From NCBI RefSeq assembly GCF_004010195.1, contig NC_057756.1, positions 8,450,456-8,512,922 of the forward strand: 62,467 nucleotides of DNA, in the 5' to 3' direction. The notes below the pieces were generated by a model, which saw only the letters and a program-made list of their open reading frames with translations, was not told the DNA's origin and searched no databases. The stretch is from Chiloscyllium plagiosum (taxonomy: Eukaryota). Each line of letters opens with the position of its first letter. Positions within the stretch are counted from its first letter, which is position 1. Below are positions 19,353 through 59,757 of the stretch, one piece after another. The position numbers and the translations under genes are program-made.

Positions 19353-20472
19353 CAATAATCTCTATTTCTGTAGTTTTCCGCAATAACTACAGTCGACCCT
19401 GTCTCTGTAAAATCCTCCAGCCTGGACCAAAATACCCACCTGTGTACTTTCCCCAAGCCCCAAGAGAACATGGTATCACTGTAACCTTCTGCAGGCCAGA
19501 TCACATTCCTGCCTCCTGGCCTATAGCACCACATGACCTCTGTAACCATCCCCCATCCTGACCGGACTCCTTATCTGTGTAAACACCTCCAGACCCTTTT
19601 CCAACTGCAACAACACTTCCCATCTATGTGTGCTCCTCCCTGTACCTCAAACACCCTCTCTTTGTGTAACTCAGCAGTTTAGGGTGGTTCACTGGTGGAC
19701 ACTGCTGCCTCACAGCACCAGAGACCCAGGTTCAATTCTAGCCTTGGGTGACTGTCTGTATGGAGTTGGCACATTGTCTCCGTGTCTGCATGGGTTTCCT
19801 GCCACAGTCCAAAGATGTGCAGGTCAGATAAATTGGCCATTCTAAACTGACCGAGCGTTAGGTGCATCATTCAGAGGGAANNNNNNNNNNNNNNNNNNNN
19901 NNNNNNNNNNNNNNNNNNNNNNNNNNNNNNNNNNNNNNNNNTACAATAATCTCTATTTCTGTAGTTTTCCGCAATAACTGCAGTCCACCCTGTCTCTGTA
20001 AAATCCTCCAGCCTGGACCAAAATTCCCACCTGTGTACTTTCCCCAAGCCCCAAGAGAACGTGGTATCACTGTAACCTTCTGCAGGCCAGATCACATTCC
20101 TGCCTCCTGGCCTATAGCACCACATGACCTCTGTAACCATCTCCCATCCTGACCGGACTCCTTATCTGTGTAAACACCTCCAGACCCTTTTCCAACTGCA
20201 ACAACACTTCCCAGCTATGTGTGCTCCTCCCTGTACCTCAAACACCCTCTCTTTGTGTAACTCAGCAGTTTAGGGTGATTCACTGGTGGACACTGCTGCC
20301 TCACAGAACCAGAAACCCAGGTTCAATTCTAGCCTTGGGTGACTGTCTGTATGGAGTTGGCACATTCTCTCCGTGTTTGCATGGGTTTCCTCCCACAGTC
20401 CAAAGATGTGCAGGTCCGGTGAATTGGCCATTCTAAACTGGCCAGAGTGTTAGGTGCATCATTCAGAGGGAA
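19353..20472. repeat. ~530-bp direct duplication either side of gap 19881-19941; each copy ends in an HE1 SINE
   Basis: 19353-19880 aligns to 19944-20472 with scattered substitutions; a partial third copy lies at about 18114-18252. Confidence 0.9.
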
Positions 20473-23209: not shown

Positions 23210-24780
23210 AGTGGGGTTAAGAATGTCACTGTATCTGCAGGACATTCGTCTGGGGGACAGTGAGGAGTCAAAGGTCATGTCCATGTTGGTAGGAATGACC
23301 TGGGTAGGAAGGGTGAAGTGGTCTGGGAATCAGAATTTATGTAGCTAGGGGAATAGTTAGCAAGCAGGATCTCAGATTTAGAAATCCCTGGAATACGCCC
23401 AGTGCCATGTACAAGTGAGAACAGAACTCGGAGTTTTAGACAGATGAGAGTTTGACTGGAACGATGATGCAGCAGGAAGGGCTTCAGATTCCTGGGACAT
23501 TGGGGCTGGTTCTGGGGAAGGCAGCAACTGTACAAGCTGGATGGGCTAACGTGACAGAGCTGGGACTGAATTTCTCACAGGGTTTTTTAGAGACGGATTG
23601 AAAATAACCTGGTGTGTGCTCAGGATCCAAAAAGGAATAGTAGAGGAGACTACCAGGATTCTCAAAATAATGGGAGATACAGTTGGTACTAAGTTACAAG
23701 AACACGTTTATCAGTGGAAGATGGAGTAAGAAAGAAAGCCTTAATCTGAGGTACTCTGCATGGACATGAATACTCGGAGTGTGGGGAATTCCAGATGCAG
23801 ATTGCTGTGTGGAAATCTGATGTACTGATCACCGAGAGCTGGTTTAACGAATGGCAGGACTTGGTGTTAAATATTGCTGTGTATAAAGGATTCCAAAATG
23901 ATAGAAGGGAAATGAAAGGATGATGGTAGAAGTACTGGTTGAGATTAGCGTTAGTTAAGGAGTCCAAGAGAAAGAGGATCCATCCAAGGACAGAATGAGT
24001 TTGGTGGAGCTACAGAACAAAAAGTATACAGTTACACTGTGAGGTACAGTCTGTCGGCCATCAACCATTGGAAAAAATGGAGAGAATAAATATGCAGGGT
24101 CATTTGAGAGCGATGAAAATACTACAGATTAGTTATATTGAGAAACTTAATTTATCCAGATATTGACTGGGTTGTCGGTGTTGCAGGGTCACGAGGGTGA
24201 CTATCCCTGGATTACATGGAGGAGAGCTCACTGAAGGAGTATGTGTCCAGCCCAAGAGAGCATGTACTGTTGGACCTGATCCTTGGGAAAAGGAGAGGCA
24301 AGTGGATCCTTTGTCAGAAGGGGAAGATTTTGGGTCAGAGTGATCATTTTATTGTGAAGTTCAGGATGATGGTAGAGAATGATATACCAATAATTGAGAG
24401 TGAGAAACATTAGTTGACTGGGAGCAGCCTGCAATGGGGCAAGAATGAAGCTGGGAATTTTTGACTGCAACACCAATTTGGTCAGAAAATGACAAACTGA
24501 ACCATGAGCTCCCTGCAAAGAGGAGATGGTTTGGGTCCAGTCGAGGAATGGTCACTCAAATAGGAAAGGCAGGATTAACAAATCCAATGCTCTCTCGGTG
24601 ACAGTGAAGAACAATAGAATTTGTGTCAGATAGAGGATCGAATTGGGAACCAGGAGGAATATTGGAGGTCCATAGGGAGATGATAGGACAGAAGGGAATT
24701 ATGGGAAAACTGAGAACCACCATGGAGCTGTCTCAGAATCCTCCTGTGGACCCCTCATAATGAACGTGTTAAAAGATTGA
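23210..24780 (+). mobile_element. Old CR1 5' region (ORF1 esterase-like part and endonuclease)
   Basis: gtccatgttggtaggaatgac (VHVG.ND), EGFRFLGHW-like segment, ITESW, LLDLILG, LGQSDH. Confidence 0.8.
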
Positions 24781-29174: not shown

Positions 29175-29237
29175 GCAGTGGAGAGATTCCAATGAATCCT
29201 CACCAGGAATCCTTCACAAGTGGTAAAGATAACTCAG
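29175..29237 (+). CDS. Candidate 63-nt exon xSGEIPMNPHQESFTSGKDNS
   Basis: gtcctttgtttcag|GCAGTG...AACTCAG|gtactt; only the phase 1->1 frame is open and it is compatible with 32395-32411. It overlaps an alternative decayed-TM reading starting at 29114. Confidence 0.35.
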
Positions 29238-29443: not shown

Positions 29444-29875
29444 TGGTCTGGGAATCAGAATTTATGTAGCTAGGGGAATAATTAGCAAGCGGGATCTCAG
29501 ATTTAGAAATCCCTGGAATACGCCCAGTGCCATGTACAAGTGAGAACAGAACTCGGAGTTTTAGACAGATGAGAGTTTGACTGGAACGATGATGCAGCAG
29601 GAAGGGCTTCAGATTCCTGGGACATTGGGGCTGGTTCTGGGGAAGGCAGCAACTGTACAAGCTGGATGGGCTAACGTGACAGAGCTGGGACTGAATTTCT
29701 CACAGGGTTTTTTAGAGACGGATTGAAAATAACCTGGTGTGTGCTCAGGATCCAAAAAGGAATAGTAGAGGAGACTACCAGGACTCTCAAAATAATGGGA
29801 GATACAGTTGGTACTAAGTTACAAGAACACGTTTATCAGTGGAAGATGGAGTAAGAAAGTAAGCCTTAATCTGAG
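29444..29875 (+). repeat. Near-identical copy of 23319-23750
   Basis: About 430 bp with only a handful of differences; ORFs 23275-23535 and 29403-29660 share most of their sequence. Confidence 0.95.
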
Positions 29876-37423: not shown

Positions 37424-37923
37424 NNNNNNNNNNNNNNNNNNNNNNNNNNNNNNNNNNNNNNNNNNNNNNNNNNNNNNNNNNNNNNNNNNNNNNNNNNNNN
37501 NNNNNNNNNNNNNNNNNNNNNNNNNNNNNNNNNNNNNNNNNNNNNNNNNNNNNNNNNNNNNNNNNNNNNNNNNNNNNNNNNNNNNNNNNNNNNNNNNNNN
37601 NNNNNNNNNNNNNNNNNNNNNNNNNNNNNNNNNNNNNNNNNNNNNNNNNNNNNNNNNNNNNNNNNNNNNNNNNNNNNNNNNNNNNNNNNNNNNNNNNNNN
37701 NNNNNNNNNNNNNNNNNNNNNNNNNNNNNNNNNNNNNNNNNNNNNNNNNNNNNNNNNNNNNNNNNNNNNNNNNNNNNNNNNNNNNNNNNNNNNNNNNNNN
37801 NNNNNNNNNNNNNNNNNNNNNNNNNNNNNNNNNNNNNNNNNNNNNNNNNNNNNNNNNNNNNNNNNNNNNNNNNNNNNNNNNNNNNNNNNNNNNNNNNNNN
37901 NNNNNNNNNNNNNNNNNNNNNNN

Positions 37924-38549: not shown

Positions 38550-39650
38550 TCTTAGAACCGTACACTGTAACGGAGGTCCTTTGACCCATCTAGCCTGTAC
38601 TGCCAAAACACACTAAGTGTAAGCTAGTCCTAATTTCCTGCACTTGGCCCATAGTGTTGAATGTTATGAAATTCCCATCCAAGTGTTTTTTTTAATGGTC
38701 GTGAGGTTTCTCAGCTCAACTACACCCCCAAACACTGTATTCCAGACCCCCACCCCCACCCCCACCATCACATACTTTCCTCAAACTCCCCTAAACCTCC
38801 TGCCTTTCACTTTGAAACGACGCCCCCTCCATCCCTCCCTTGTGATTGACCTTTCAACGAAGGGAACCAGCTGCTTCCTCACCACTCTGTCCATGCCCCT
38901 CATTTTTTTTTAATTCATTCACGGATGAGGGTCTCTCCTACTGGGCCATCATTTATTGCCCATACCTAAATGCCCGGGGGGCAGTCAAGAGTCAACCCAT
39001 GGCTGTGAGTCTGGAGTCACCTGTAGACACAGACCAAGTAAGGATGGTGATTTCCTTCCCTCAGGGACATTAGTGAACCGGGTGGGTTTTTCCAACAGTT
39101 AGCAATAGATTCCTGTTCATCATTAGACTCTTACTTCCACAGAGTTCATATTCCACCATCTACTGTTGTAGGATTTGAATGCAGGTCCCCAGACGATTTA
39201 CTGTGTTAACCGTTTGGCTGTAATAACACTAGTGTTATTACTTAGTGTTATTGCTAACACTTCTCCTTAGCCACCTCCATCAGGTCCCCCCCCCTCAACC
39301 TTCTCTGCTCCAGAGAAAATAACCCAAGCTTATCCAGTCTCTCTCTCCATTGCTGAACTGCTGCGTCCCAGGGGAACACTGTGGTGCATCTCCCTCTGTA
39401 CCCCCTTCCTCTACAATCACATCCTTCCTGTCGTGTGGGGGCCAGAACTGCACACAGTACTCCAGCAGTGGCCTCACCAAAGTTCAGTACAGCTCCAGCA
39501 TTACCTCCCTGCCGTTATAATCTATGCCATGACCAATGCTGAATGTCTTATTAACCACTTCTTAACCACGTGCAGGGATCTGTGGACAAGCACTCCAATA
39601 TCTCTCTGTACCCCTGAGCTACCTGTCCAATGAGCACTCCCTTGCCTTGC
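38550..39650 (-). mobile_element. CR1 3' part with an inserted SINE/LINE tail (about 38905-39230)
   Basis: VRPLLEYCVQFWPPHDRKDVI. Confidence 0.85.
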
Positions 39651-40257
39651 ACTGACATGTCTACATTTTACTAACTAGGTTAAAAATCACACAATACCAG
39701 GTTATAGCCCAATAGATTTATTTGGAAGCACTAGCTTTCAGAGCACTGCTCCTTCATCAGGTGGTTGTGGAGTACACGATTGTAAGACACAGAATTCATA
39801 GCAAAAGTTTACAGTGTGATATAACTGAAATTATACATTGAAAGGTACCTTGAATGTTTGTTCAGTCTCTCAGCTGTTAGAATGACCATGTTGGTTTCAG
39901 TTCTTTCATATTGCAACCTTTTTTTAAAAAGTTACATTCTCAAATGAACTTCAACAATTGGTGTCTGTCAGTCCAGATAATGTATTGAAGGTGTTAGCCC
40001 CCCTGTGTGCTGCTGTCTGTGCCATTATATGACTGTGACTGATTCTAATCTAAAAAAAATGAGTTAACAGAATCTTACATGGATTCATGCAGTTTTTTTG
40101 TGCAAAGTACAACGTAACTCTGCAAGTACAAATTCACCCCACAAACGTATATGTGTATGTGTGCATGTGGGTGTTAGCGAAGCTGGCATTTGAAAGGAAC
40201 AATGGCATGCGTTGATAAAATGTTTTCACCAAGATAAAACGTGTTATTTTTCAATAG

Positions 40258-40386
40258 TGCCCCACTGAGATCGTGTACACATCCGTGAATGTACAGCAGC
40301 AGAATGTAGGAACACCGAAGGGTTGGCACCATGAAGACAATGTCGATTCAGAAGAGATTGTCTATAGTGTTCTCAAACACAAGTAG
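40258..40386 (+). CDS. Terminal exon of an inhibitory receptor with two ITIMs: CPTEIVYTSVNVQQQNVGTPKGWHHEDNVDSEEIVYSVLKHK*
   Basis: gtgttatttttcaatag acceptor; only phase 0 is open; two I-V-Y-x-x-V/L motifs, each preceded by Glu; TAG at 40384-40386. Confidence 0.85.
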   Translation, partial: CPTEIVYTSVNVQQQNVGTPKGWHHEDNVDSEEIVYSVLKHK

Positions 40387-40844
40387 ATTTATTATGGATT
40401 GGTCAGAGATGTGTGGCTAAAATTGAGATTCCAGCTAAATAGTTTGATCACTGAGTGATCGACCCCCTCATTGACAGTGATAACACAATCGGAACTGTCC
40501 ATACTTTTTTCAAAGTACCTGTCAGAGAGGGGTGCAACAGGTGGGACTTGAAGCCGGCACTGCTGGCTCAGTGATAGGGACACTACCACCATCCCAGAAA
40601 GTTGCAAACCCATACTGAAGCCCGTGGACATTTGATACCCTGAGATCACGACATCAGCCAACAGACACTGCCACCACATCCCAGACTGGAAAGCATCATT
40701 AATAACCACAGCAGGAATGCCAAGAAGACCATCAGAAATAGGACAGGATTAGTTGGTCTGTTGTAACCTTTTTAGGTGGATGTCCAAGAGAATTTTTTTC
40801 TTTTCAATTGTGGTGTTGGGTTTTCCATTTGCCAAGATTTAAGG

Positions 40845-41380
40845 ATTTAGCCATTTGGCCACTTGAGCCTGCTCTGCCATTGGACAGGATCATGGGCTGA
40901 TCCGACATTCCTCATGTCCACTTTCCTGCCCTTTTCCTCGATCCCCTGACTGATCAGGAATTTCTCTATCACAGCCTTCAGTAGACACACGGACTCTGCC
41001 CCCACAGCTCTCTGTGGCAGGGAGCTCCAAAGGCCCACAACTCTCTGAGAGAAGAAACTCTTCCCCATCTCAGTCTGAATTTGGTGCCCTTTTATTCTGA
41101 GACAGTGCCCTCTGCCCCTAGACTCTCCCATGGGGGGGGACCCTCTCTCTCAGCATTGACCCTGTCCAGCCCCTTCAGAATCCGAAATGTTTCAGTGAGA
41201 TCGCCTCTCGTTCTAAACTCCAGTGAGGAGAGTCCCACCCAGTTTAAGCTTCGGTCAGGAGACAATCCCTCCATAGCAGGGGCCATCCTCGTGAACTGTC
41301 TCTGAATTGTTCTCAATGAAATGACCCCTTTCCTTCACAGCATTCCAGAGGTGGGGTCTCACTGGGACCTTGAATAGAAT
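40845..41380 (-). mobile_element. CR1 LINE 3' end
   Basis: RTRGDLTETFRILKGLDRV; SRGRGHCLRIKG..FFSQRVVGLWSSLPQ. Confidence 0.9.
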
Positions 41381-41491
41381 CATCACTTTTTGAAAGGTCA
41401 TGAACATGATGTAGATATTTCTGATGGAAGGAGATCCTTCGGTTCATCACGTATGAGCCTCTTGGTCAACAGCCATCTAGAATCATAGAAG

Positions 41492-41970
41492 CAGAATCCC
41501 TACAGTGTGGGCACAGGCCCTGCAGCCCAACAAGTCCACATCCACTCTCCGAAAGGTATCCCACCCTGACCTTATTACTCGACATTTTTCCCCTAACCTG
41601 CACATCCCTGGACACTATGGGACAATTTCGCATGACTAATCCACCCTAACCTGCACATCCCTGGACACTATGGGTAACTTAGCATGACTAATCCACCCTA
41701 ACCTGCTCATCCCTGGGCACTATGGGACAATTTCCCATGGCCAATCCACCATAACCTGCACATCCCTGGACACTATGGAACAATTTCCCATGGCCAATCC
41801 ACCCTAACCTGCACATCTTTGGACTGCGGTAGGAAACCGGAGCACCCGGAGGAAACCCACGCAGACACGGGAAGAATGTGCAAATTCCACACAGGCAGTC
41901 GCCCGAGGGTGGGATCGAACCCGGGTCCCTGGTGCCGTGAGGCAGCCGTGCTAACCACTGAGCCACCGTG
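41492..41970 (-). mobile_element. Full-length HE1-type SINE with an internal 53-bp tandem expansion
   Basis: Minus-strand head cacggtggctcagtggttagcac, B box ggttcgatccc, 4-5 internal units, CR1-like tail. Confidence 0.92.
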
Positions 41971-43736
41971 GTGATCCCGTTGTATTCCACCCACAGTTCG
42001 GAATGTTGTAACATTTCAGGTGAATATCCAAGAGATTATTTTTGTTCTAAATGGTGGTGTTAGGTCTTCCATTTGCCACGATTTAAGGCAATGCTTTTCA
42101 CATTCCTGTCACCCTCATGATGGTCCTCAAATTCACTTAAATCTTACTCAAAGACATTTTGTGCCTCATGGTTATTGAACTCTCTGCCATGGCCCATTGA
42201 TGTCATCATCAATCTGTTGTTGTGCTATCCTGTAAAATAACCACCTTCTCGGTCACATGTTGCCTGCCAGAACTAATTGCAAATAATGTATTAACACAGT
42301 TGTATAGTCCTTTGGATATATATTAAACCACAAACATTGCAGTGTCGTGATATTATTTCCTTATTGCCTATTCTGTTTGCATTCTGTCAGTTTTATTAAT
42401 GTCATGGTCTGGTCTACTTCTCCATTATACCACCCCTTGTTGTCCATTTAATTGGATGTGGTTCCTACTTGTAGACCTCTGGATCATCTTCACCTCCCCC
42501 TTTGAAAATGTGATGTCCGGAGTTCAACCAGCCTTCCAGAGTGGTCAAACAAATTGCTTACCAAGGGCTCCCGCGTTTGCCTATTCCATTGTCTCTATGG
42601 ACAACGCATTGTCACAAAGTTGGCATCTGAAAAATGGTAAAATTGTAAAATGAATTCAAAAGCAGTGCATGGTCCCTTTTAGAGATTGTGTTTTTGCAAG
42701 GTTTGTAGCTCAGGTTGAGGTTTAGGGTGTAGGTTTGCTCGCTGAGCTGTAGGTTTGATATCCAGACGTTTCATTACCTGGCTAGGTAACATCATCAGTG
42801 GCGACCTCCAAGTGAAGCGAAGCTGTTGTCTCCTGCTTTCTATTTATATGTTTGTCCTGGATGAGGTTCCTGGGGTTTGTGGTGATGTCATTTCCTGTTC
42901 GTTTTCTGAGGGGTTGATAGATGGTATCGAGATCTATGGGACAANNNNNNNNNNNNNNNNNNNNNNNNNNNNNNNNNNNNNNNNNNNNNNNNNNNNNNNN
43001 NNNNNNNNNNNNNNNNNNNNNNNNNNNNNNNNNNNNNNNNNNNNNNNNNNNNNNNNNNNNNNNNNNNNNNNNNNNNNNNNNNNNNNNNNNNNNNNNNNNN
43101 NNNNNNNNNNNNNNNNNNNNNNNNNNNNNNNNNNNNNNNNNNNNNNNNNNNNNNNNNNNNNNNNNNNNNNNNNNNNNNNNNNNNNNNNNNNNNNNNNNNN
43201 NNNNNNNNNNNNNNNNNNNNNNNNNNNNNNNNNNNNNNNNNNNNNNNNNNNNNNNNNNNNNNNNNNNNNNNNNNNNNNNNNNNNNNNNNNNNNNNNNNNN
43301 NNNNNNNNNNNNNNNNNNNNNNNNNNNNNNNNNNNNNNNNNNNNNNNNNNNNNNNNNNNNNNNNNNNNNNNNNNNNNNNNNNNNNNNNNNNNNNNNNNNN
43401 NNNNNNNNNNNNNNNNNNNNNNNNNNNNNNNNNNNNNNNNNNNNNNNNNNNNNNNNNNNNNNNNNNNNNNNNNNNNNNNNNNNNNNNNNNNNNNNNNNNN
43501 NNNNNNNNNNNNNNNNNNNNNNNNNNNNNNNNNNNNNNNNNNNNNNNNNNNNNNNNNNNNNNNNNNNNNNNNNNNNNNNNNNNNNNNNNNNNNNNNNNNN
43601 NNNNNNNNNNNNNNNNNNNNNNNNNNNNNNNNNNNNNNNNNNNNNNNNNNNNNNNNNNNNNNNNNNNNNNNNNNNNNNNNNNNNNNNNNNNNNNNNNNNN
43701 NNNNNNNNNNNNNNNNNNNNNNNNNNNNNNNNNNNN

Positions 43737-47065: not shown

Positions 47066-47329
47066 CTCCTCCGTCATTGCCCGCTTTTTGAGTGAATAAC
47101 ACTACTTGCTCATCCAATTAAAACACAATTTACAAACAACGAGTCATTGCTGATGCTCTGGGAAGAGACCAGACTGCTCGGGACTCCACCTGGTGCTCAA
47201 AGTAACATGCTGCAGTCTCCGAATTCAGGAGAAAATGATACCCACCAAGCTGTATAAGTAGTCACCCACCTTCACATAAACCAAGGGTACTTCGGTACTG
47301 CCAGAGCTATAAGCTCACAAATAGAATAA

Positions 47330-50300
47330 TTAAAGAAATACCGATTTCATTAAGAAAATATAGATTTACATTAGAAAATATGCATTTAACTAAGAAAATG
47401 TAGATTTAGCTCAGAAAATATAAACTTGGCAAAGAAAATATAGATTAAGGAAAGAATGTATAGATTTAATAAAGAAAATGTAGATATAGCTCAGAAAATA
47501 TAGGCTTGGTAAAGAAAAGGTAGATTTAAAGAAAGAAAGTATGGATTTATTGAAGAAAATGTGGATTTAACAAAAAATTGAAATAAGACAATATAGATTG
47601 AACTAAGAAAATATAGATTTAACTAAGAAAATATAGATTTGAATGAGAATATGTAGATTTAACTAAGAAAATGTAGATTTAACTAAGAAAATGTGGATTA
47701 AATAAAAAAAGATTGAACTAAGAAACTATATTCAAAGTTTGAGAGAAGATTTGTGGGCGACACGGTAGCACAGCAGTTAGCACTGTTGCCTCACAGCGCC
47801 AGAGACCCGGGTTCAATTCCCGCCTCAGGCGACTGACTGTGTGGAGTTTGCATGTTCTCCCCGGGTCTGCGTGGGTTTCCTCCGGGTGCTCCGGTTTCCT
47901 CCCACAGTCCAAAGGTGTGCAGGTCAGGTGAATTGGCCATGCNNNNNNNNNNNNNNNNNNNNNNNNNNNNNNNNNNNNNNNNNNNNNNNNNNNNNNNNNN
48001 NNNNNNNNNNNNNNNNNNNNNNNNNNNNNNNNNNNNNNNNNNNNNNNNNNNNNNNNNNNNNNNNNNNNNNNNNNNNNNNNNNNNNNNNNNNNNNNNNNNN
48101 NNNNNNNNNNNNNNNNNNNNNNNNNNNNNNNNNNNNNNNNNNNNNNNNNNNNNNNNNNNNNNNNNNNNNNNNNNNNNNNNNNNNNNNNNNNNNNNNNNNN
48201 NNNNNNNNNNNNNNNNNNNNNNNNNNNNNNNNNNNNNNNNNNNNNNNNNNNNNNNNNNNNNNNNNNNNNNNNNNNNNNNNNNNNNNNNNNNNNNNNNNNN
48301 NNNNNNNNNNNNNNNNNNNNNNNNNNNNNNNNNNNNNNNNNNNNNNNNNNNNNNNNNNNNNNNNNNNNNNNNNNNNNNNNNNNNNNNNNNNNNNNNNNNN
48401 NNNNNNNNNNNNNNNNNNNNNNNNNNNNNNNNNNNNNNNNNNNNNNNNNNNNNNNNNNNNNNNNNNNNNNNNNNNNNNNNNNNNNNNNNNNNNNNNNNNN
48501 NNNNNNNNNNNNNNNNNNNNNNNNNNNNNNNNNNNNNNNNNNNNNNNNNNNNNNNNNNNNNNCACCCCTCAGCCTCCGACGCTCCAGGGAAAACAGCCCC
48601 AGCCTGTTCAGCCTCTCCCTGGAGCTCAGTTCCTCCAACCCTGGCAACATCCTTGTAAATCTTTTCTGAACCCTTTCAAGTTTCACAACATCTTTCCGAT
48701 AGGAAGGAGACAGGATTGCATATAATATTCCAAAAATGGCTTAACCAATGTCCTGTTCAGCCACAACATGACCTTCCAACTCCAACACTCTGACCAATAA
48801 AGGAAAGCATACCAAATGCCTTCTTCACTATCCTATCTACCTGCGACTCCACTTTCAAGGTCTCTTTGTTCAGCAAATCTCCCTAGGAAATTGCCATTAA
48901 GCGTATAAGTCCTGCTAAGATTTGCTTTCCCAAAATGTAGCACCTCGCATTTATCTGAATTAAACTCCATCTGCCACTTCTCATCCCATTGGCCCATCTG
49001 GTCAAGATCCCGTTGTAATCTGAGGTAATCTCCTTTGCTGTCCACTACATCTCCAATTTTGGTGTCATCTGCAAACTTACTAACTTTACGTGTTATTTCA
49101 CATCCAAATCATTTATGTAAATGACAAAAAGTAGAGGACCCAGCACCGATCCTTGTTGGCACACCAATGGTCAAAGGCCTCCAGTCTAAAAGAAAATATA
49201 GATTTAACTAAGAAAATACCAATTAAACTAAAGAAAATAGAGATTTAAATAAAAAAACTATACGTTTAACTAAAAAACTGTAGATTTAACTGAGAAAATG
49301 TAGGTTTCACAAAGAAAATGTAGGTTTAACTGAGAAAATGCAGATGTAATGAAAATATAGATTTAGCTATGAAAGTGTGGATTTATCGAAAAAATAGATT
49401 TAAATGAAAGAAAATGTAGACTTCACTAAGAAAATGTTGATTTACCTGAAGAAAATATGCATTTCAATAAGACAATATAGATTTAACTAAGAAAATGTAG
49501 ATTAAACTAAAGAAAATGCCCATTTAACGAACAAAAATATGGATTTAACCAAGAAAATGTATATTTGACTAAGGAAATATATGTTTAACTAAGAATGTAT
49601 GGATTTAACTAGGAAATGTTTAGTTTACACTGCAAAAATATAGATTTAGCTCAGAAAATATAGACTTCACGAAGGAAATATAGATTTAACAAAGAAAATG
49701 TCAATTAAACTGAAGAAAAATATAGATTTCACTGAAGAAAACATAGATTTACTAAAGAAAATATAAATTTGACTAAGAAAATGTAAATTAAACTAAAGAA
49801 AACGCTGATTTAATGAACAAAATATGGATTTAACTTAGAAAATGTCAATTTAATGAAAAAATATGGATTGAACTAAAAAAATGTATATATGACTCAGAAA
49901 ATACAGATTTAAGTAAGGAAATATAGAATTAACTAAGAAAATGTAGATTTATCTAAGAAAATGTAGGCCAGACTAAGAAATTCTAGATTTAACGAAATAA
50001 AATACAGATTTAACTAAAAAACTGTGAATTACTCTAAAGAAAATGCCAATTTATCTAAAGAAAATATAGGTTAAACTCAGAACACAGATTTATCTAAGGA
50101 AATGTTGGTTTTACTGAGAAAAAATAGGTTTAACTTTAAAATTGTGGATTTAATGGAAGAGAATATATATTTAACTAAGAAAATGTAAATTTAACTTAAA
50201 ATATCGATTGAACTATGAAAAATATATATGACTCAGAAAATATAGATTTAAGTGAGGAAATGTAGATTTAACTGGAGAAAATATAGACTGAACAAAAACA

Positions 50301-52335
50301 ATACAGATTTAACTAAGAAAATGTCGACTTGACTCAGAACTTCTAGATTTAGCTAAAGAAAATATAGATATAAATTTAAAAACTGTAGATTAAACTAAAG
50401 AAAATGCCGATTTAACTAAAGAACATATAAGTTTAACTAAGAACACAGATTTAACTGAGAAAATGTAGGTTTCACTAAGAAAACATTGGTTTAACTTAGA
50501 AATTGTCGATTTAATGGCAGAGAATATAGACTTAACTAAGAAAATGTAGATTTAACTTAGAAGATGTCAATTTAATGAAAAAATATAGATTGAACAAAGA
50601 ACATGTATATTTGACTAAGGAAATATAGATTTAACTTGGGAAATGAAGACTTGACTAAGGAACTGCAGATTTAAATAACAACAATATAGATTTAACTGAA
50701 GGAAATGTAGATTTAACAAAAACTATACAGATTTAACAAAGAAAATGTAGATTTGACTAAGAAATTCTTGATTTAACGAAAGAAAATACAGTTTTAACTA
50801 AAGAAATGTAGATTAAACTAAAGAGAATGCCAATTTAACTAAAAAAAATAGGTTTATCTAAGAACACAGATTTATCTAAGGAAATGTAGGTTTCACTGAG
50901 AAAACATAGGTTTAACTTAGAAATTGTAGATTTAATGGAAGAGAACATAGATTTAATTAAGAAAATATAGATTTAACGAAAAATATATAGATTTAATGAA
51001 AAAGGTTCAGGTGAAATGAAAGAAAAAGCAGATTTAACTAAGAAAACATAGATTTAAATAAGAAAATATAAATTTAACTAAAAACATGTAGATTAAACTG
51101 AAGAAAATGCTGATTTCATGAAAGAAAAGATGGATTTAACTAAGAAGACTTCAAATTAATGAAAAAATATAGATTTAATGAAGAAGCTGTAGATTTAACA
51201 AAAACAATACAGATTTAACTAATAAAATGTAGATTTAACTTAAAAATGATTTAACTAAGAAAATGCAGGTGAAACTAAAAGGAAAACAGATTTAACTAAA
51301 GAAAATATCAATTTAACTAAGAAAACAAGAATTAACTAGGTAAATATAAATATAACTAAGAAAATGTAGATTAAACTAAAGTAAATATTGATTTAAGGAA
51401 AGAAAATATGGATTTAATTTAGAAAATAGGGATTTAATTTAGAAAATATCAATTTAATGAAAAATATAGATTGAACTAAGAAAATGTACATATGACTCAG
51501 AAAATGTAGATTTAACTATAGGAAATGTAGATTTAACTAAGGAAATATAGATTTAACTATAGGAAATGTAGAGTAAGGAAATATAGATTTAAGTAAGAAA
51601 ATGTAGATTTAAGTAAGGAAATATAGATTTAAGTAAGAAAATGTAGATTTAACTAAGAAAATATAGATTTAACTATAGGAAATTTAGACTTAACAAAACC
51701 ATACAGATTTAACTAAGAAAATGTAGGTTTAACAAAAAATTAGATTTAACTAAGAAAATATAGATTTCACTGGGAAAATGTAGATTAAACTGAAGAAAAT
51801 GCAGATTTAACAGAAGAAAATACAGGTTTAATGAAGTAAACATAGTTTTGACTAAGACAATGAAGGTTTCACTGGGAACATATAGGTCGAATTTAAAAAT
51901 GTAGATTTAACTGAAGAAGATATAGGTATAATTAAGAAAATGCTGATGAAACTGAAGAAAATGTACATTTAAATAAGAAAATATGGATTTAACTCAGAAA
52001 ATACGGACTTAACTATTAACTTATGCAAGAAAATTGTTGGTTTAACTAAGAGAATGTAGATTTAACTAAGAGAATGTAGACTATACTAAAGGAAACATAG
52101 ATTTAACTAAAGATAATATAGGATTAATTAAGAAAATGCAGATTTAACTAAAGAAAATATAGGTGTAAGAAAATATATATCTAACTAAGAAGATGTAGGT
52201 TTCACTGAAGAAAATATAGGTTTAACTAAGAAGATGTAGATTAAACTGAAGAAAATTTAGATGCAACAAAATGTGGAGTTATCTAAGAAAAATGGATTAA
52301 ATGAAGAAAATGTAGATTTCACTATGAAAATATAG
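47330..52335. repeat. AT-rich degenerate satellite, 20-21-bp unit (TAGATTTAACTAAGAAAATA/G), interrupted by HE1 (47754-47942), a gap and CR1 (48563-49190, minus)
   Basis: Continuous units at 47330-47730 and 49190-52335. Confidence 0.95.
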
Positions 52336-54314: not shown

Positions 54315-54321
54315 TCAATAT
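54315..54321 (-). CDS. Probable terminal coding exon (R)Y-stop of the ITAM receptor
   Basis: tgattattttgcag|A TAT TGA; phase-2 entry matches the preceding AG|gt. Possible ATTAAA poly(A) signal near 54132-54137. Confidence 0.6.
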
Positions 54322-54624: not shown

Positions 54625-54668
54625 CTTTGTATTTCATTGTACACTGACTGTTCCCCCAACTTCAAACT
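54625..54668 (-). CDS. Cytoplasmic exon (44 nt) SLKLGEQSVYNEIQ(R), completes the ITAM
   Basis: cacttcccacag|AGTTTG...ATACAAAG|gtaaga. Spliced to the previous exon it gives YTSL-x7-YNEI. Confidence 0.88.
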
Positions 54669-54766
54669 CTGTGGGAAGTGATCACAACAAGTCAGATTTA
54701 CTGCTTCCTGTGTAATGCTCAGTACAATTGATGTCGAACATGCATTAGCAGGTGGGTTCCACTCAC

Positions 54767-54796
54767 CGTGTAAGTAGCGTTGATCTCTGCGGAATC
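54767..54796 (-). CDS. Cytoplasmic exon (30 nt) DSAEINATYT, first ITAM tyrosine
   Basis: gttttctttacgtcccaag|GATTCC...TACACG|gtgagt, phase 0->0. An alternative internal CAG acceptor 10 nt in leaves the ITAM frame unchanged. Confidence 0.85.
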
Positions 54797-55464
54797 CTTG
54801 GGACGTAAAGAAAACAGTTTTCAGGTGTGGAATATTCTGGAATAGACCTCAACAGGAAGGGAAACAGAGGGGGCCAATGCAGATGTGGGAGTAACTGGAT
54901 TTAATGTGGATGATGAACAGGCTAAATAATATTTCAAATCTTTGCTGGGAATTAATTAATATCTGACAGTGGTGGCTGGAACCTTAAATCATACAGATTT
55001 CTCCACCTGAACATGTTCTTTGAAAGATCTCACTAAATATTTGCTGCCTCCCTCTCGGTTTTGCCCTAGAGTGCTCCCATTTATTCCCGTCGCAAGTTAT
55101 TTTCTCATCCCTCCCCCAGCTGTTTTGTATTCCTGTTGAATGAGTTGGCAGGCAGATCACAACAGCTCAGTGTATCAAAAAATAACTCCACCATTTTGTT
55201 ATTCCTTTAGCCAACTGACTTCAAACTGTGTCGCCCAGCCAATGAGAAAGGTTGCAATTTGGTTTTTTTGCTCTTGATTAGATTAGATTACTTACAGTGT
55301 GGAAACAGGCCCTTCGGCCCAAATCGCTTCAAAAGACCTACACAGAAACAGAATCTGAATGTATCCCTCAATGTTACTATCTTAACAATAATGTCTTAAT
55401 GAGGAAATAGAGACAATCACATACTCAGACAAATCAGAAATGGGCAAAAGTTCATTAAGTCATA

Positions 55465-55780
55465 TTAGATTAGATTAGATTACTTACAGTGTGGAAACAG
55501 GCCCTTCGGCCCAACAAGTCCACACCGCCCCGCCGAAGCGCAACCCACCCATACCCCTACATTTACCCCTTAACACTACGGGCAATTTAGCGTGGCCAAT
55601 TCATCTGACCCTGCACATCTTTGTGACTGTGGGAGTAAGCCGGAGCACCCGGAGGAAACCCACGCAGACACGGGGAGAACGTGCAAACTCCACACAGTCA
55701 GTCGCCTGAGGCGGGAATTGAACCCGGGTCTCTGGCGCTGTGAGGCAGCAGTGCTAGCCACTGTGCCACCGTGCCGCCCA
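55465..55780 (-). mobile_element. Full-length, well-preserved HE1-type SINE
   Basis: Head gggcggcacggtggcacagtgg, B box ggttcaattcc, tail with (TCTAA)n; a lone tail copy at 55277-55321. Confidence 0.93.
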
Positions 55781-56459
55781 CAAAGACCTCAAAGACCTCA
55801 AAGCAATTGGTGTGTTTCTGGGTAAAATTCAAGGCATCCCGGTAAAAACGATTCTTCCTCAGAAATCACACGACACCAGGTTATAGTGCGGCAGGTTTAT
55901 TTGCAATCACAAAGCTTTTGGAGCGCTGTGACTTGTGACTTCAAGTTCATCGATTGGACTGTATCCTGGTGTTGTGTGACTTCTGACTTTGCCCACCCGC
56001 GTCCAACACCATCACCTCCACATCAGAGATTCGTTGTGGCATTTTATATCGTTGCCTCCAGTGATATCGTCACCAAGGTCAAACCTGTTCACATTTGTTA
56101 AGCCTTGTTCCTCTTCTCTGATAATTAAAATACATTGTCACATGAAGGTAAATGTTTTATTCCCTGCTCTACACACTCTTAGGGAGCTGAAGGGAAAAAT
56201 TCAAATCGCAATTCCTTTCAAGTGATTCCGATCACACAGCACAAATGATTAGCCAAAAAAGGGATCAGACTGTCATCAGTCACAGGGATAAAGGAAAGTT
56301 ACTGCGGATGCTGGAATCTGAAAACAAAAGAGAAAATGCTGGAAAATCTCAGCAGGTCTGGCAGCATCTGTAAGGAGAGAAAAGAGCTGACATTTCGAGT
56401 CTAACTGACCCTTTTGTCAGCTTTGACAGTCAGTTAGACTTGAAACGTCAGCTCTTTTC

Positions 56460-57270
56460 CACCACCCTTTGTGTGAAAATCCTAGCCAGCACGTCTTTTT
56501 TAAACTTCCCCTCCTCCCACCCTCCCCCACGTCAAACAGCTCTTGAACCTGTATCCCCGAGTAACTGACCCCTCCACCCTGGGGAAAAGCCTCATACTTT
56601 CCACTCTATCCATGCCATTCCCAAGCTTTTACATTTCTATCAGGTCAGCCCTCAACCTCCTGCGTTCCAGTGAGAACAAACCCAGTCTAACCAACCTTCC
56701 TTCAGAGCTAAAGGCCCCATACCAGGCAACATCCTGATCAACCTTTTCTGCACCCCTCTCCAAAGCATCCACGTCCTTCTGGTTAGTGTGGTGACCAGAA
56801 CTGGATGCAATATTCCAAGTGTGGCCTCACTGAAGCTCTATAAAGCTGCAGCATAACGTGTTTATCCTTATACTCAATGCCCCGTCCCAATGAAGGTAAG
56901 CAGGCCATTGGTCTATTTACTAGGTAAAAACAATGACTGCAGACGCTGGAAACCAGATTCTGGATCAGTGGTGCTGGAAGAGCACAGCAATTCAGGCAGC
57001 ATCCGAGGACAGGCAAAATCATTTTGCCTGTCCTCGGATGCTGCCTGAATTGCTGTGCTCTTCCAGCACCACTGATCCAGAAATTGGTCTATTTACTGCC
57101 TTGTCTACCTGCACTGCCACCTTCAGTGATCTGGGGGCCTGCACACCCAGATCCCTCTACATCTCAATGCTCCTAAGGGTTCTGCCATTCACTGTATAAT
57201 TTCCACGACTACTTAACCTTCCTCACATTTATCTGGAATAAACTCTGTCTGCCATTCCATTCCACTCTGA
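56460..57270 (-). mobile_element. CR1 3' part carrying a hairpin insertion (56922-57082)
   Basis: RGIEYKDKHVMLQLYRASVRPHLEYCIQFWSPH; 15-bp target duplication around the insert. Confidence 0.88.
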
Positions 57271-57302
57271 TGTATCCAGAAGAGTTGAAAGGATTGACTT
57301 AC

Positions 57303-57349
57303 CTGTTGAAATTTCTTCCTTTGATTGGGAATGTTGATATAGTGCTCCT
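57303..57349 (-). CDS. Cytoplasmic exon (47 nt) of the ITAM receptor, xEHYINIPNQRKKFQQ
   Basis: gtattctttcag|AGGAGCAC...TTTCAACAG|gtaagt. All three frames are open; the phase 1->0 reading gives YINI and joins in frame to the next exon. Confidence 0.75.
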
Positions 57350-57594
57350 CTGAAAGAATACGTTAGGATGAATAAGACAGCTTGAATCATTCTCATGAAA
57401 CGTAATCTGTCATTCATTCTACACTCATCAGGACAGATGCAAGAATGCCATATTGAACAGGGAGCAACAACTTATGCTGCAGTCAGATTATGTTCTTGAT
57501 GTCCTGAATTTGATTTGATCTGAATTATTATTGTGACATGTCTCGAAGTACAGTGAAAAGTTTTGTTTTGTTTGCAGTACACACAGAATAGGAT

Positions 57595-57906
57595 GTCTAC
57601 AGTGCGGAAACAGGCCCTATGGTCAAACAAGTCCACACTGACCCTCTGAAGAGTGATCCACCCAGACCCATTCCCCCTATCTTATTACTATACATTTCCC
57701 TGACCTAAAACGCCGAACACACACGTCCCTGAACACTACGGGCAATTTAACACGGCAAATCCATCTTTGGACTGTGGGAGGAAACCGGAGCACCTGCAAG
57801 ACACAGGGCAAGTGTGCAAACTCTGCACAGACAGTCACCCAAGGTTGGAATTGAACTAGGGTCCCTGGCTCTGTGAGGCAGCAATGCTAACCACTGAGCC
57901 ACCGTG
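57595..57906 (-). mobile_element. HE1-type SINE
   Basis: Minus-strand cacggtggctcagtggttagcattgctgcctcacag head, plus tail. Confidence 0.85.
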
Positions 57907-58499
57907 CAGCATTAGGGTAATGGAACAGAGTGAGGAATGCAATGTTACCGCTGCAGAGAAGGTACGCTAAGAGCGAGATCAACACTGTATTTCACGTATG
58001 AGAGGTCCATTCAGAAATCTTACAAGAGCTGGGAAGAAACTGTTCCTGAGTCTGTCCAGTCTAATCTCTAATAGATATTAACAGACCCTTGCTGGTACAT
58101 TATTAGCAATTGTATAATTTCAAATCTACTTTCTTCCTTTCTGCATACATTAAGCTTTGTTATTGTTATCTTCTGCGGAAGTGTCACTGGACCTGAAACT
58201 TTAACTCCAATTTCTCTTCACAGAAGCTGCCAAACCTGCTGAGCTTTTCCAGCAATTTCTGTTGTTCTTTCTAATTTACAGCATCTGCGTTTTTTTGTTT
58301 TTTTACTTGTTGAATATTTTAAATTCGGTCTGTGCTGTACATGTATCTCACGTATATTAATCAGCATTTTCTGGTATCATTGCACATCCACCTCCATTGT
58401 TTCTACTCGATAAAAACCAGTGATACACTAATGTGAACCAACTCACCATTTCTGGACATCAGCAAACACACAGGATAAAGAGGTGGACGACCAGCGGAA

Positions 58500-59008
58500 G
58501 GCAGTGCAGTGGCTCAGGGGTTAGCACTGATGCCTCACAGCACCAGAGACGCGGGTTCGATCCCGCCCTCGGGTGACTGTCTGTGTGGAGTTTGCACACC
58601 CTCCCCGTGTCTGTGTGGGTTTCCTCCGGGTGCTCCGGTTTTCTCCCACAGTCCAAAGATGTGCAGGTTAGTGGGGATTGACCATGGGAAATTGTTCCAT
58701 AGTGCCCAGGGATGTGCAGGTTAGGGGGGATTGGCCATGGGAAATTGAGGTTAGGGTGGGTTGGCCATGGGAAATTGTCCCATAGTGTCCAGGGATGTGC
58801 AGGTTAGAGTGGATTAGCCATGGGGAATTGTCCCATAGTGCCCAGGGATGTGCAGGTTAGGGTGGATTGGCCATGGGAAATTGTCCCATAGTGCCCAGGG
58901 ATGTGCAGGTTAGAGTGGATTAGCCATGGGTAATTGTCCCATAGTGCCCAGGGATGTGCAGGTTAGGGTGGATTGGCCATGGGAATTTGCCCCAGAGTGT
59001 CCAAAGAT
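58500..59008 (+). mobile_element. HE1-type SINE with a 53-bp tandem expansion running into the gap
   Basis: A/B boxes, then repeated aggttagggtggattggccatgggaaattgtcccatagtgcccagggatgtgc. Confidence 0.92.
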
Positions 59009-59674
59009 NNNNNNNNNNNNNNNNNNNNNNNNNNNNNNNNNNNNNNNNNNNNNNNNNNNNNNNNNNNNNNNNNNNNNNNNNNNNNNNNNNNNNNNNNNNN
59101 NNNNNNNNNNNNNNNNNNNNNNNNNNNNNNNNNNNNNNNNNNNNNNNNNNNNNNNNNNNNNNNNNNNNNNNNNNNNNNNNNNNNNNNNNNNNNNNNNNNN
59201 NNNNNNNNNNNNNNNNNNNNNNNNNNNNNNNNNNNNNNNNNNNNNNNNNNNNNNNNNNNNNNNNNNNNNNNNNNNNNNNNNNNNNNNNNNNNNNNNNNNN
59301 NNNNNNNNNNNNNNNNNNNNNNNNNNNNNNNNNNNNNNNNNNNNNNNNNNNNNNNNNNNNNNNNNNNNNNNNNNNNNNNNNNNNNNNNNNNNNNNNNNNN
59401 NNNNNNNNNNNNNNNNNNNNNNNNNNNNNNNNNNNNNNNNNNNNNNNNNNNNNNNNNNNNNNNNNNNNNNNNNNNNNNNNNNNNNNNNNNNNNNNNNNNN
59501 NNNNNNNNNNNNNNNNNNNNNNNNNNNNNNNNNNNNNNNNNNNNNNNNNNNNNNNNNNNNNNNNNNNNNNNNNNNNNNNNNNNNNNNNNNNNNNNNNNNN
59601 NNNNNNNNNNNNNNNNNNNNNNNNNNNNNNNNNNNNNNNNNNNNNNNNNNNNNNNNNNNNNNNNNNNNNNNNNN

Positions 59675-59757
59675 TAGAGCAATGGTCAATGCTACCAGAG
59701 CGATCACCAGCACTCCCACTATCACCCATGGAATGATGAGCTTGCTATCGGTATGAC
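59675..59757 (-). CDS. Transmembrane exon of an ITAM-bearing type I receptor (3' end lost in gap 59009-59674)
   Basis: Minus strand: pyrimidine tract cccttctctttgtgttttcacag, then phase-1 entry xGT CAT ACC... = (G)HTDSKLIIPWVIVGVLVIALVALTIAL; about 22 uncharged hydrophobic residues running into the Ns. Confidence 0.85.

What the first reader, a model, noticed from the sequence alone, without database searches (positions are those of the whole stretch)
40258..40386. Intact double-ITIM terminal exon missed by the ORF track
Seen: good acceptor, single open phase, EIVYTSV and EIVYSVL, stop three residues after the second motif. Known: a phase-0 last exon holding both tyrosine motifs is the layout of CEACAM1, and paired C-terminal motifs also occur in CD33-type Siglecs; such motifs recruit SHP-1/SHP-2. 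Inference: 3' end of an inhibitory receptor. Its upstream exons are uncertain and may be hidden in the 500-N gap at 37424-37923.
Basis: partly seen in the sequence, partly recalled or inferred. Interest (0 to 1): 0.8.

Follow-up and report, generated by a model that had tools for sequence, protein, structure and literature searches.

The report
Shark nectin-type double-ITIM inhibitory receptor
This short stretch is the spliced, conserved last exon of a shark cell-surface protein with one nectin-type outer domain and two tail tyrosine motifs that likely recruit SHP phosphatases, so it likely works as an immune brake like human TIGIT, though it is probably not the same gene.

Summary
The exon is real. 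The motif pattern alone is not beyond chance (83 of 200 shuffles). But the 42 residues end public shark gene models at 79-95% identity, and contigs of RNA-guessed runs splice into 40258 in phase 0 from the expected penultimate exon. The gene encodes one IgV domain, a membrane anchor and two tyrosine motifs. Orthologues from eight shark species form one clade. The IgV is nectin/PVR-type with lock and key motifs, not CEACAM or Siglec. TIGIT's YxN motif is absent; orthology to TIGIT is untested and, on unchecked notes, doubtful. No upstream exon lies in the window, and about 570 coding bases cannot fit a literal 500-base gap. The convergent ITAM-bearing nectin-like neighbour is only 34% identical in the IgV, so it is not this gene's twin. 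Likely a SHP-1/SHP-2 recruiting checkpoint receptor for nectin-family ligands (inferred). Ten paper searches found no description.

The parts
40236..40257 (+). Splice acceptor (T-rich tract, TAG)
   Evidence: Sequence; contigs of X17, X18 and X19 begin to lay at 40256, the AG being shared with the end of the upstream exon
40258..40386 (+). Coding part of the last exon, phase 0, 42 codons plus stop
   Evidence: 95%, 93% and 79% identical to the last 42 residues of P0001, P0002 and P0003
40270..40287 (+). Membrane-proximal ITIM (IVYTSV)
   Evidence: ITIM consensus met in 8 of 8 tails aligned
40357..40374 (+). Distal ITIM (IVYSVL); ITSM or ITSM-like in some relatives
   Evidence: Tyrosine kept in 8 of 8 tails; strict ITIM in 5, strict ITSM in 1, TxYxxL in 2
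40387..41550 (+). 3' untranslated region, at least this long in a relative; end not found (first ATTAAA at 42322)
   Evidence: X17 contig lays to 41176, X18 contig to the end of the stretch laid, 41550; signal scan
37424..37923 (.). 500-N gap upstream; possible break that separates the exon from the rest of its gene
   Evidence: no leader, IgV, membrane or penultimate exon in any frame of the window
54625..59757 (-). Neighbouring separate gene, convergent: membrane exon 59757-59675 (runs into a gap) and cytoplasmic exons 57349-57303, 54796-54767, 54668-54625 of a three-Ig nectin-like receptor with a YxN motif and an ITAM split by a phase-0 intron
   Evidence: orthologues P0004 and P0005

Best explanation
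The exon is the spliced last exon of a shark membrane protein with one nectin/PVR-type IgV domain and a two-tyrosine tail, which likely binds a nectin-family partner on another cell and likely recruits SHP-1/SHP-2 to damp activating signals. Shown: exon, splice junction, architecture in orthologous gene models, nectin-type IgV with the AX6G lock and T(F/Y)P key, conservation of both tyrosines. Inferred steps: (1) lock-and-key binding to a nectin-family IgV in trans clusters the receptor; (2) a Src-family kinase phosphorylates both tyrosines; (3) their 24-29 residue spacing suits the tandem SH2 domains of SHP-2 or SHP-1, as in PD-1 (25 apart); (4) the phosphatase opposes ITAM receptors, possibly including the ITAM-bearing nectin-like gene next door. 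It is likely a nectin-derived member of a shark nectin-like receptor cluster that works like TIGIT or CD112R rather than the TIGIT orthologue.
For: Last 42 residues of three shark models. In-frame splice from the penultimate exon: loose ends of X17 and X19 (one study) read by eye as 10 of 10 residues of P0006 181-190; X18 (second study) has 37 unlaid letters at the same point; the X15 depth (third study) fits a contig starting at 40256. One V-set domain. Best solved relatives nectin-1/2 at E 5e-14 to 3e-13, PVR 3e-9, CD96 3e-8, CD226 6e-8, TIGIT 4e-6; Foldseek ranks 1-11 are nectin-2 chains. Lock and key motifs in 8 of 8 orthologous IgV domains; both tyrosines in 8 of 8 tails while the spacer varies. 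Clade of 8 orthologues at 100/98. Lock-and-key definition: PMC9263721 and PMC10486284, passages. ITIM/ITSM definitions and PD-1 positions: PMC12151841, passages and section 11.
Against: No ligand, phosphatase binding or cell type was measured. The upstream exons are known only from relatives, not from this window. The runs are RNA by guess; the joined letters were seen in one study only; the DNA control X2 did not cover the exon, and X23 gave 0 reads. Two orthologous models (P0007, P0012 isoform X2) lack the membrane segment and one (P0008) stops after the IgV. The distal motif fits neither strict consensus in 2 of 8 tails. An ITIM in this family does not prove inhibition: a TIGIT tail in a cell-free test recruited no SHP-1 or SHP-2 (PMC9263721 Table 2). 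The tree holds no TIGIT row, and its deep branches are open. The case against TIGIT orthology leans on unchecked notes.
Confidence: 0.6

Rival explanations
1. It is the shark orthologue of TIGIT (or CD112R), with a tail that differs from the mammalian one.
For: Same architecture (one IgV, membrane anchor, inhibitory tail). The whale-shark model is named TIGIT-like. The top Atlas feature hit of the whole protein is a TIGIT-like cluster. TIGIT chains are hit at 2e-7 to 6e-7.
Against: No YxN (ITT-like) motif in the tail (TIGIT definition). The IgV scores far better against nectins than TIGIT, though fast evolution of TIGIT could cause that. Unchecked notes point to another shark gene as TIGIT, put CD200/TIGIT-like genes on another piece of this genome and CEACAM-like genes 1.8-3.5 Mb away on this piece; human PVR and CEACAM1 lie at 19q13, TIGIT at 3q13 (PMC8674843, figure legend).
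Confidence: 0.15
2. It is an adhesion molecule or ligand, like PVR or MPZL1/PZR, whose tyrosines recruit SHP-2 for adhesion and migration signalling in non-immune cells.
For: The IgV is closest to ligand-type nectins. PVR itself has an ITIM (PMC7286890 and PMC8674843, passages). MPZL1 is the second Atlas feature hit. The tissues of the holding runs are unknown.
Against: It lacks the two constant domains of nectins and PVR and the C-terminal afadin-type motif (motif recalled). Myelin P0 scores well below nectins. It lies among ITIM- and ITAM-bearing relatives.
Confidence: 0.15
3. It is the inhibitory twin of the convergent ITAM gene, a classical paired receptor that shares one ligand with it.
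For: Tail-to-tail position within 15 kb; both ectodomains nectin-type; same contig in two annotated species. The AU test does not reject one clade of both groups (p 0.116).
Against: The IgV domains are 34% identical. The ITAM gene groups at 100/99 with other, two- or three-Ig ITIM genes of sharks that are 53-56% identical to it; those are the better twins.
Confidence: 0.06
4. In this genome the exon is an orphan left by partial duplication or loss of the 5' part of the gene.
For: No upstream exon in 40 kb of window.
Against: Intact acceptor, frame and motifs. Near-identical contigs of organism B (3 differences in about 400 letters) cover exon and UTR. Two gaps of exactly 500 N upstream suggest joins of unknown length (the meaning of such gaps is recalled).
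Confidence: 0.03
5. It is the end of a CEACAM1- or CD33-type Siglec gene.
For: Similar tail layout. CEACAMs exist in cartilaginous fish (PMC5112662, passage).
Against: No CEACAM or Siglec among 51 solved-structure hits at E up to 0.001. With the profile, CEACAM1 appears only at 1e-3 and no Siglec is among the best 60 of 153. Single IgV with both canonical cysteines.
Confidence: 0.01

Closest known systems
Human TIGIT (PMC9263721, passages read)
   Same: One IgV with lock-and-key motifs, membrane anchor, tyrosine-based inhibitory tail, similar size.
   Different: TIGIT has an ITT-like tyrosine (Y225) and an ITIM (Y231) six residues apart; the shark tail has two ITIM-type motifs 29 apart and no YxN. 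The shark IgV is closer to nectin-1/2 than to TIGIT.
CD112R / PVRIG (PMC9263721, passages read)
   Same: PVR-family receptor with an ITIM-like motif that associates with SHIP and SHP-1/2.
   Different: Pfam Ig_PVRIG scores only 16 bits against a cut-off of 31.5; two motifs rather than one.
PVR (CD155) and nectin-2
   Same: Closest IgV by sequence and fold; PVR also carries an ITIM.
   Different: They have V-C-C ectodomains; the shark protein has the IgV alone and a tandem motif tail.
PD-1 and BTLA (PMC12151841, passages and section 11); CEACAM1 (PMC2832619, passages)
   Same: Tandem ITIM plus ITIM/ITSM tail with similar spacing, the layout that engages both SH2 domains of SHP-2.
   Different: Unrelated ectodomain family. 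CEACAM1's tail is coded by three cytoplasmic exons; the shark gene models imply two (inferred from models that skip the membrane exon).
Public shark gene models XP_060708626.1, XP_072409623.1, XP_048476551.1 and relatives
   Same: Orthologues; the gene is already modelled in RefSeq.
   Different: They carry automatic, conflicting names (uncharacterized, TIGIT-like, nectin-1/2/3-like); no paper on them was found.

Membership tests
ITIM-bearing inhibitory Ig receptors | Cytoplasmic (S/I/V/L)xYxx(I/V/L) behind a membrane anchor | tested here: met
   consensus from PMC12151841 section 11
ITIM-bearing inhibitory Ig receptors | Phosphotyrosine-dependent SHP-1/SHP-2/SHIP recruitment and inhibition | not testable with these tools
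   Needs experiment
PVR/nectin family | N-terminal IgV most similar to nectins | tested here: met
   (on orthologues; this exon is not in the window)
PVR/nectin family | AX6G lock and T(F/Y)P key | tested here: met
   8 of 8 orthologous IgV domains; definition
PVR/nectin family | Binding to a nectin-family IgV | not tested
   No complex job sent; a pass would follow from likeness to solved nectin pairs
Nectins proper / PVR | V-C-C ectodomain; afadin-binding C-terminus in nectins (recalled) | tested here: not met
   One V-set domain; no such C-terminus
TIGIT | Single IgV with lock-and-key | tested here: met
TIGIT | ITT-like motif next to an ITIM | tested here: not met
   No YxN in the 8 aligned last-exon tails
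TIGIT | Orthology by tree and synteny | not testable with these tools
   No recognisable TIGIT sequence among stored proteins; no genome held; only unchecked notes
CEACAM1 | CEACAM-type N domain, usually followed by IgC-like domains | tested here: not met
   both canonical cysteines present, whereas the N domain lacks them (recalled)
CEACAM1 | Tail coded by three cytoplasmic exons (PMC2832619) | tested here: inconclusive
   Two implied by gene models; exon map of the upstream part not seen
CD33-type Siglecs | Sialic-acid-binding V-set with the F-strand arginine plus C2 domains (recalled) | tested here: not met
   No Siglec hit; no C2 domain; F strand has no such arginine in 7 of 8 orthologues
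Classical paired receptors (with the ITAM neighbour) | Highly similar ligand-binding domains with opposite tails | tested here: not met
   34% IgV identity

The most novel reading that the evidence does not exclude
Sharks keep an old, undescribed nectin-derived checkpoint cluster, separate from the TIGIT locus and probably in the CEACAM/PVR chromosomal region. In it a single-IgV receptor with a PD-1-like tandem ITIM tail (this gene) works beside ITIM and ITAM nectin-like receptors. Nectin-sensing immune brakes and accelerators would then predate amniotes and have been built at least twice from nectin genes.
Probability: 0.35. Interest if true: 0.7.

Novelty: new variant of a known kind. Interest (0 to 1): 0.45.

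Why it matters
A recent genome survey lists CD96, CD226 and TIGIT as first appearing in amniotes (PMC13262535, Table 1). A conserved shark receptor that joins a nectin lock-and-key IgV to a tandem ITIM tail suggests that nectin-sensing inhibitory receptors are much older, or arose in parallel. None of the mammalian PVR-family receptors in the passages read has this tail. It gives a named, testable candidate checkpoint in cartilaginous fish and corrects automatic names. The gene itself is already in public models, which limits the surprise.

Tried and rejected
Motif pattern as evidence by itself: rejected (83 of 200 shuffles). Upstream exons in the window: tblastn, 9-residue scans and ungapped peptide scans found none; the hydrophobic match at 39214-39268 is broken across two frames and lies in a short repeat-like stretch. 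Twelve + strand ORFs upstream of the exon gave no meaningful Pfam hit. No RNA holder on record was listed. X23 gave 0 reads, no test. DNA control X2 did not cover the exon, so a retrocopy as source of the joined form is not formally excluded. X16 covered only 40326-40744. Seven of the 24 listed runs were laid. No whole genome is held, so synteny and the gap could not be examined. AU tests were inconclusive: shark orthologues plus neighbours p 0.116; shark plus nine teleost single-IgV ITIM proteins p 0.343. The tree used 57 IgV domains from 54 chosen proteins of about 170 stored. Sequence look-ups of earlier findings with P0006 and P0012 found 0 windows. Paper searches listed no paper on this gene; most subscription journals are not in the library. 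Supplements of PMC13262535 (Table S2) and PMC5112662 were not read and may bear on dates and exon phases. No complex prediction was sent because nectin-type pairs tend to pass by likeness.

Full report
Observation. The acceptor ends in TAG at 40257; 42 open codons follow, with IVYTSV at 40270-40287, IVYSVL at 40357-40374 and a stop at 40384-40386. The other two phases are closed. Because the acceptor's TAG is an in-frame stop, the frame is only 42 codons long, below ORF thresholds. The pattern is not rare: such pairs of motifs occur 4 times in the window against a mean of 3.4 in shuffles, and with a crude acceptor and a near stop in 83 of 200 shuffles. The case for the exon therefore rests on homology and transcripts.

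Homology. The 42 residues match the last 42 residues of models from Hemiscyllium ocellatum (95%), Chiloscyllium punctatum (93%) and Rhincodon typus (79%); 3 of 5 candidates passed. The window is therefore likely from a bamboo or epaulette shark relative (inference). Wider searches added orthologues from Stegostoma, Carcharodon, Heterodontus, Heptranchias and Pristiophorus. Their IgV domains form one clade of 8 at 100/98 in a tree of 57 IgV domains that I chose from stored proteins. In 8 aligned last-exon tails (the window and 7 orthologues; the Carcharodon model has no tail) both tyrosines are kept while the spacer varies, and the spacing is 24-29. Seven tails end three residues after the second motif; the eighth is a fused model that I cut there. 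The second motif is a strict ITIM in 5 tails, a strict ITSM in 1 and TxYxxL in 2.

Splicing. No listed holder is on record as RNA; seven of 24 listed runs were laid. Contigs of X17 and X19 (one study) lay from 40256 onward with 546 and 531 letters upstream that fit nothing in the stretch. Their last 30 letters plus the shared AG read, by eye, as the ten residues that precede the last exon in P0006, in frame. X18 (second study) starts at the same base with 37 unlaid letters and runs to 41550. The depth of X15 (third study, near-identical to the window in the UTR) fits a contig starting at 40256. X16 covered only 40326-40744, X23 gave no reads, and the DNA control X2 did not cover the exon. The splice into 40258 is thus shown in a relative and likely in this species.

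The protein. Full models are 227-232 residues: signal peptide, one V-set domain, one membrane segment, and a tail of about 55-60 residues. Two models lack the membrane segment and one ends after the IgV; these may be isoforms or model errors. The IgV is nectin/PVR-type. With one sequence, 51 solved chains match at E up to 0.001, led by nectin-2 (1e-13), with TIGIT at 2e-7 and no CEACAM or Siglec. With the profile the order is nectin-1/2, nectin-3, PVR, CD96, CD226, myelin P0, TIGIT, and CEACAM1 at 1e-3 (best 60 of 153). Foldseek on the model of P0006 (mean pLDDT 68, mostly 80-90 in the IgV) ranks nectin-2 chains 1-11, PVR 12 and TIGIT from 19. The AX6G lock and T(F/Y)P key that define PVR-family binding (PMC9263721 and PMC10486284, passages) are present in 8 of 8 orthologues.

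Where the rest of the gene is. No leader, IgV, membrane or penultimate exon is in any frame of the window, although at about 90% identity they would be obvious, as the neighbour's 10- to 16-residue exons are. The missing part is 190 codons, 570 bases before introns, so it cannot sit in a literal 500-base hole. Two of the seven gaps are exactly 500 N while the rest have other lengths; such gaps usually mark joins of unknown length (recalled). The exons may be in a collapsed gap, on a misplaced contig or beyond the window start. No genome is held to decide.

Neighbourhood. A convergent minus-strand gene has a membrane exon at 59757-59675 and small exons at 57349-57303, 54796-54767 and 54668-54625. 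It is the orthologue of three-Ig 'nectin-1-like' models with a YxN motif and an ITAM split by a phase-0 intron, the split described for ITAM-bearing CEACAMs (PMC5112662, supplement legend in the main text). Nectin-like ITIM or ITAM genes do so in Heterodontus and Carcharodon too, and in Heptranchias one model fuses the ITIM gene to a three-Ig ITIM gene. The two window genes are not twins: their IgV domains are 34% identical, and the ITAM gene groups at 100/99 with two- and three-Ig ITIM genes. Teleosts also have single-IgV nectin-like proteins with two such motifs; whether they are orthologues is unresolved.

Mechanism. Most likely the IgV engages a nectin-family partner by lock and key, a Src-family kinase phosphorylates both tyrosines, and the pair binds the tandem SH2 domains of SHP-2 or SHP-1, which damp ITAM-driven activation. 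The spacing matches PD-1 (Y223 and Y248), whose two motifs are best seen as one combined SHP-2 site and whose pY-2 position varies among T, S and V in early vertebrates (PMC12151841, passages and section 11). All four steps are inferred. A caution: a TIGIT tail recruited no SHP-1 or SHP-2 in one cell-free test (PMC9263721 Table 2).

Comparison. It works like TIGIT or CD112R but fails one TIGIT feature, the ITT-like motif. Orthology could not be tested: no TIGIT sequence was among the stored proteins. Unchecked notes of this scan describe another shark gene as TIGIT, place CD200/TIGIT-like genes on another piece of this genome, and place CEACAM-like genes 1.8-3.5 Mb before this window. Human PVR and CEACAM1 lie at 19q13 and TIGIT at 3q13 (PMC8674843, figure legend). 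If those notes hold, this gene is a parallel, nectin-derived receptor. It is not a CEACAM or Siglec; that both CEACAM1 motifs lie in a phase-0 last exon is recalled, and the passages read say only that three cytoplasmic exons code its tail (PMC2832619).

Novelty and verdict. The gene is in RefSeq under conflicting automatic names. Ten paper searches listed no study of it. One survey dates CD96, CD226 and TIGIT to amniotes (PMC13262535, first part of section 8); another lists only nectin-1, nectin-3, necl-1 and necl-2 as appearing in sharks (PMC7286890, passages). The combination of a lone nectin-type IgV with a tandem ITIM tail makes it a new variant of a known kind. Observation confirmed; interpretation partly supported; interest 0.45.

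Noticed in passing
window 54625-59757, minus strand: Cytoplasmic and membrane exons of a three-Ig nectin-like receptor with YxN and a split ITAM. A possible tiny last exon starts at 54321 (one residue, then stop), while RefSeq orthologues end in a different 7-8 residue stretch.
   Followed up: partly
P0009 (Heptranchias perlo model, 688 aa): Looks like two genes fused by annotation: the single-IgV ITIM orthologue (1-231) followed by a three-Ig nectin-like ITIM receptor, which implies the two are adjacent on one strand.
   Followed up: partly
P0126, P0160, P0162 (Carcharodon carcharias): Single-IgV versions of the ITAM receptor, on a contig of the same length as the orthologue P0008.
   Followed up: partly
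P0059, P0159, P0125, P0055 (teleosts), P0044 (paddlefish), P0050 (turtle): Bony vertebrates also have unnamed nectin-like receptors with tandem ITIM-type tails, and a turtle nectin-2-like model has an ITAM; a wider undescribed family may exist.
   Followed up: partly
P0007, P0012: Orthologous models join the IgV to the cytoplasmic exons without the membrane exon; a secreted isoform or a model error.
   Followed up: no
window 23319-23750 and 29444-29875; 19353-19880 and 19944-20472: Near-identical duplicated segments (99% and 97%), the second pair flanking a 61-N gap, possibly assembly artefacts.
   Followed up: no
window about 29177-29222, plus strand: Short stretch with a good acceptor and donor; no match to the ITIM gene's orthologues.
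   Followed up: no
window 47320-47730 and 49189-52335: Long AT-rich satellite of short degenerate units (GC 0.23) between the two convergent genes.
   Followed up: no
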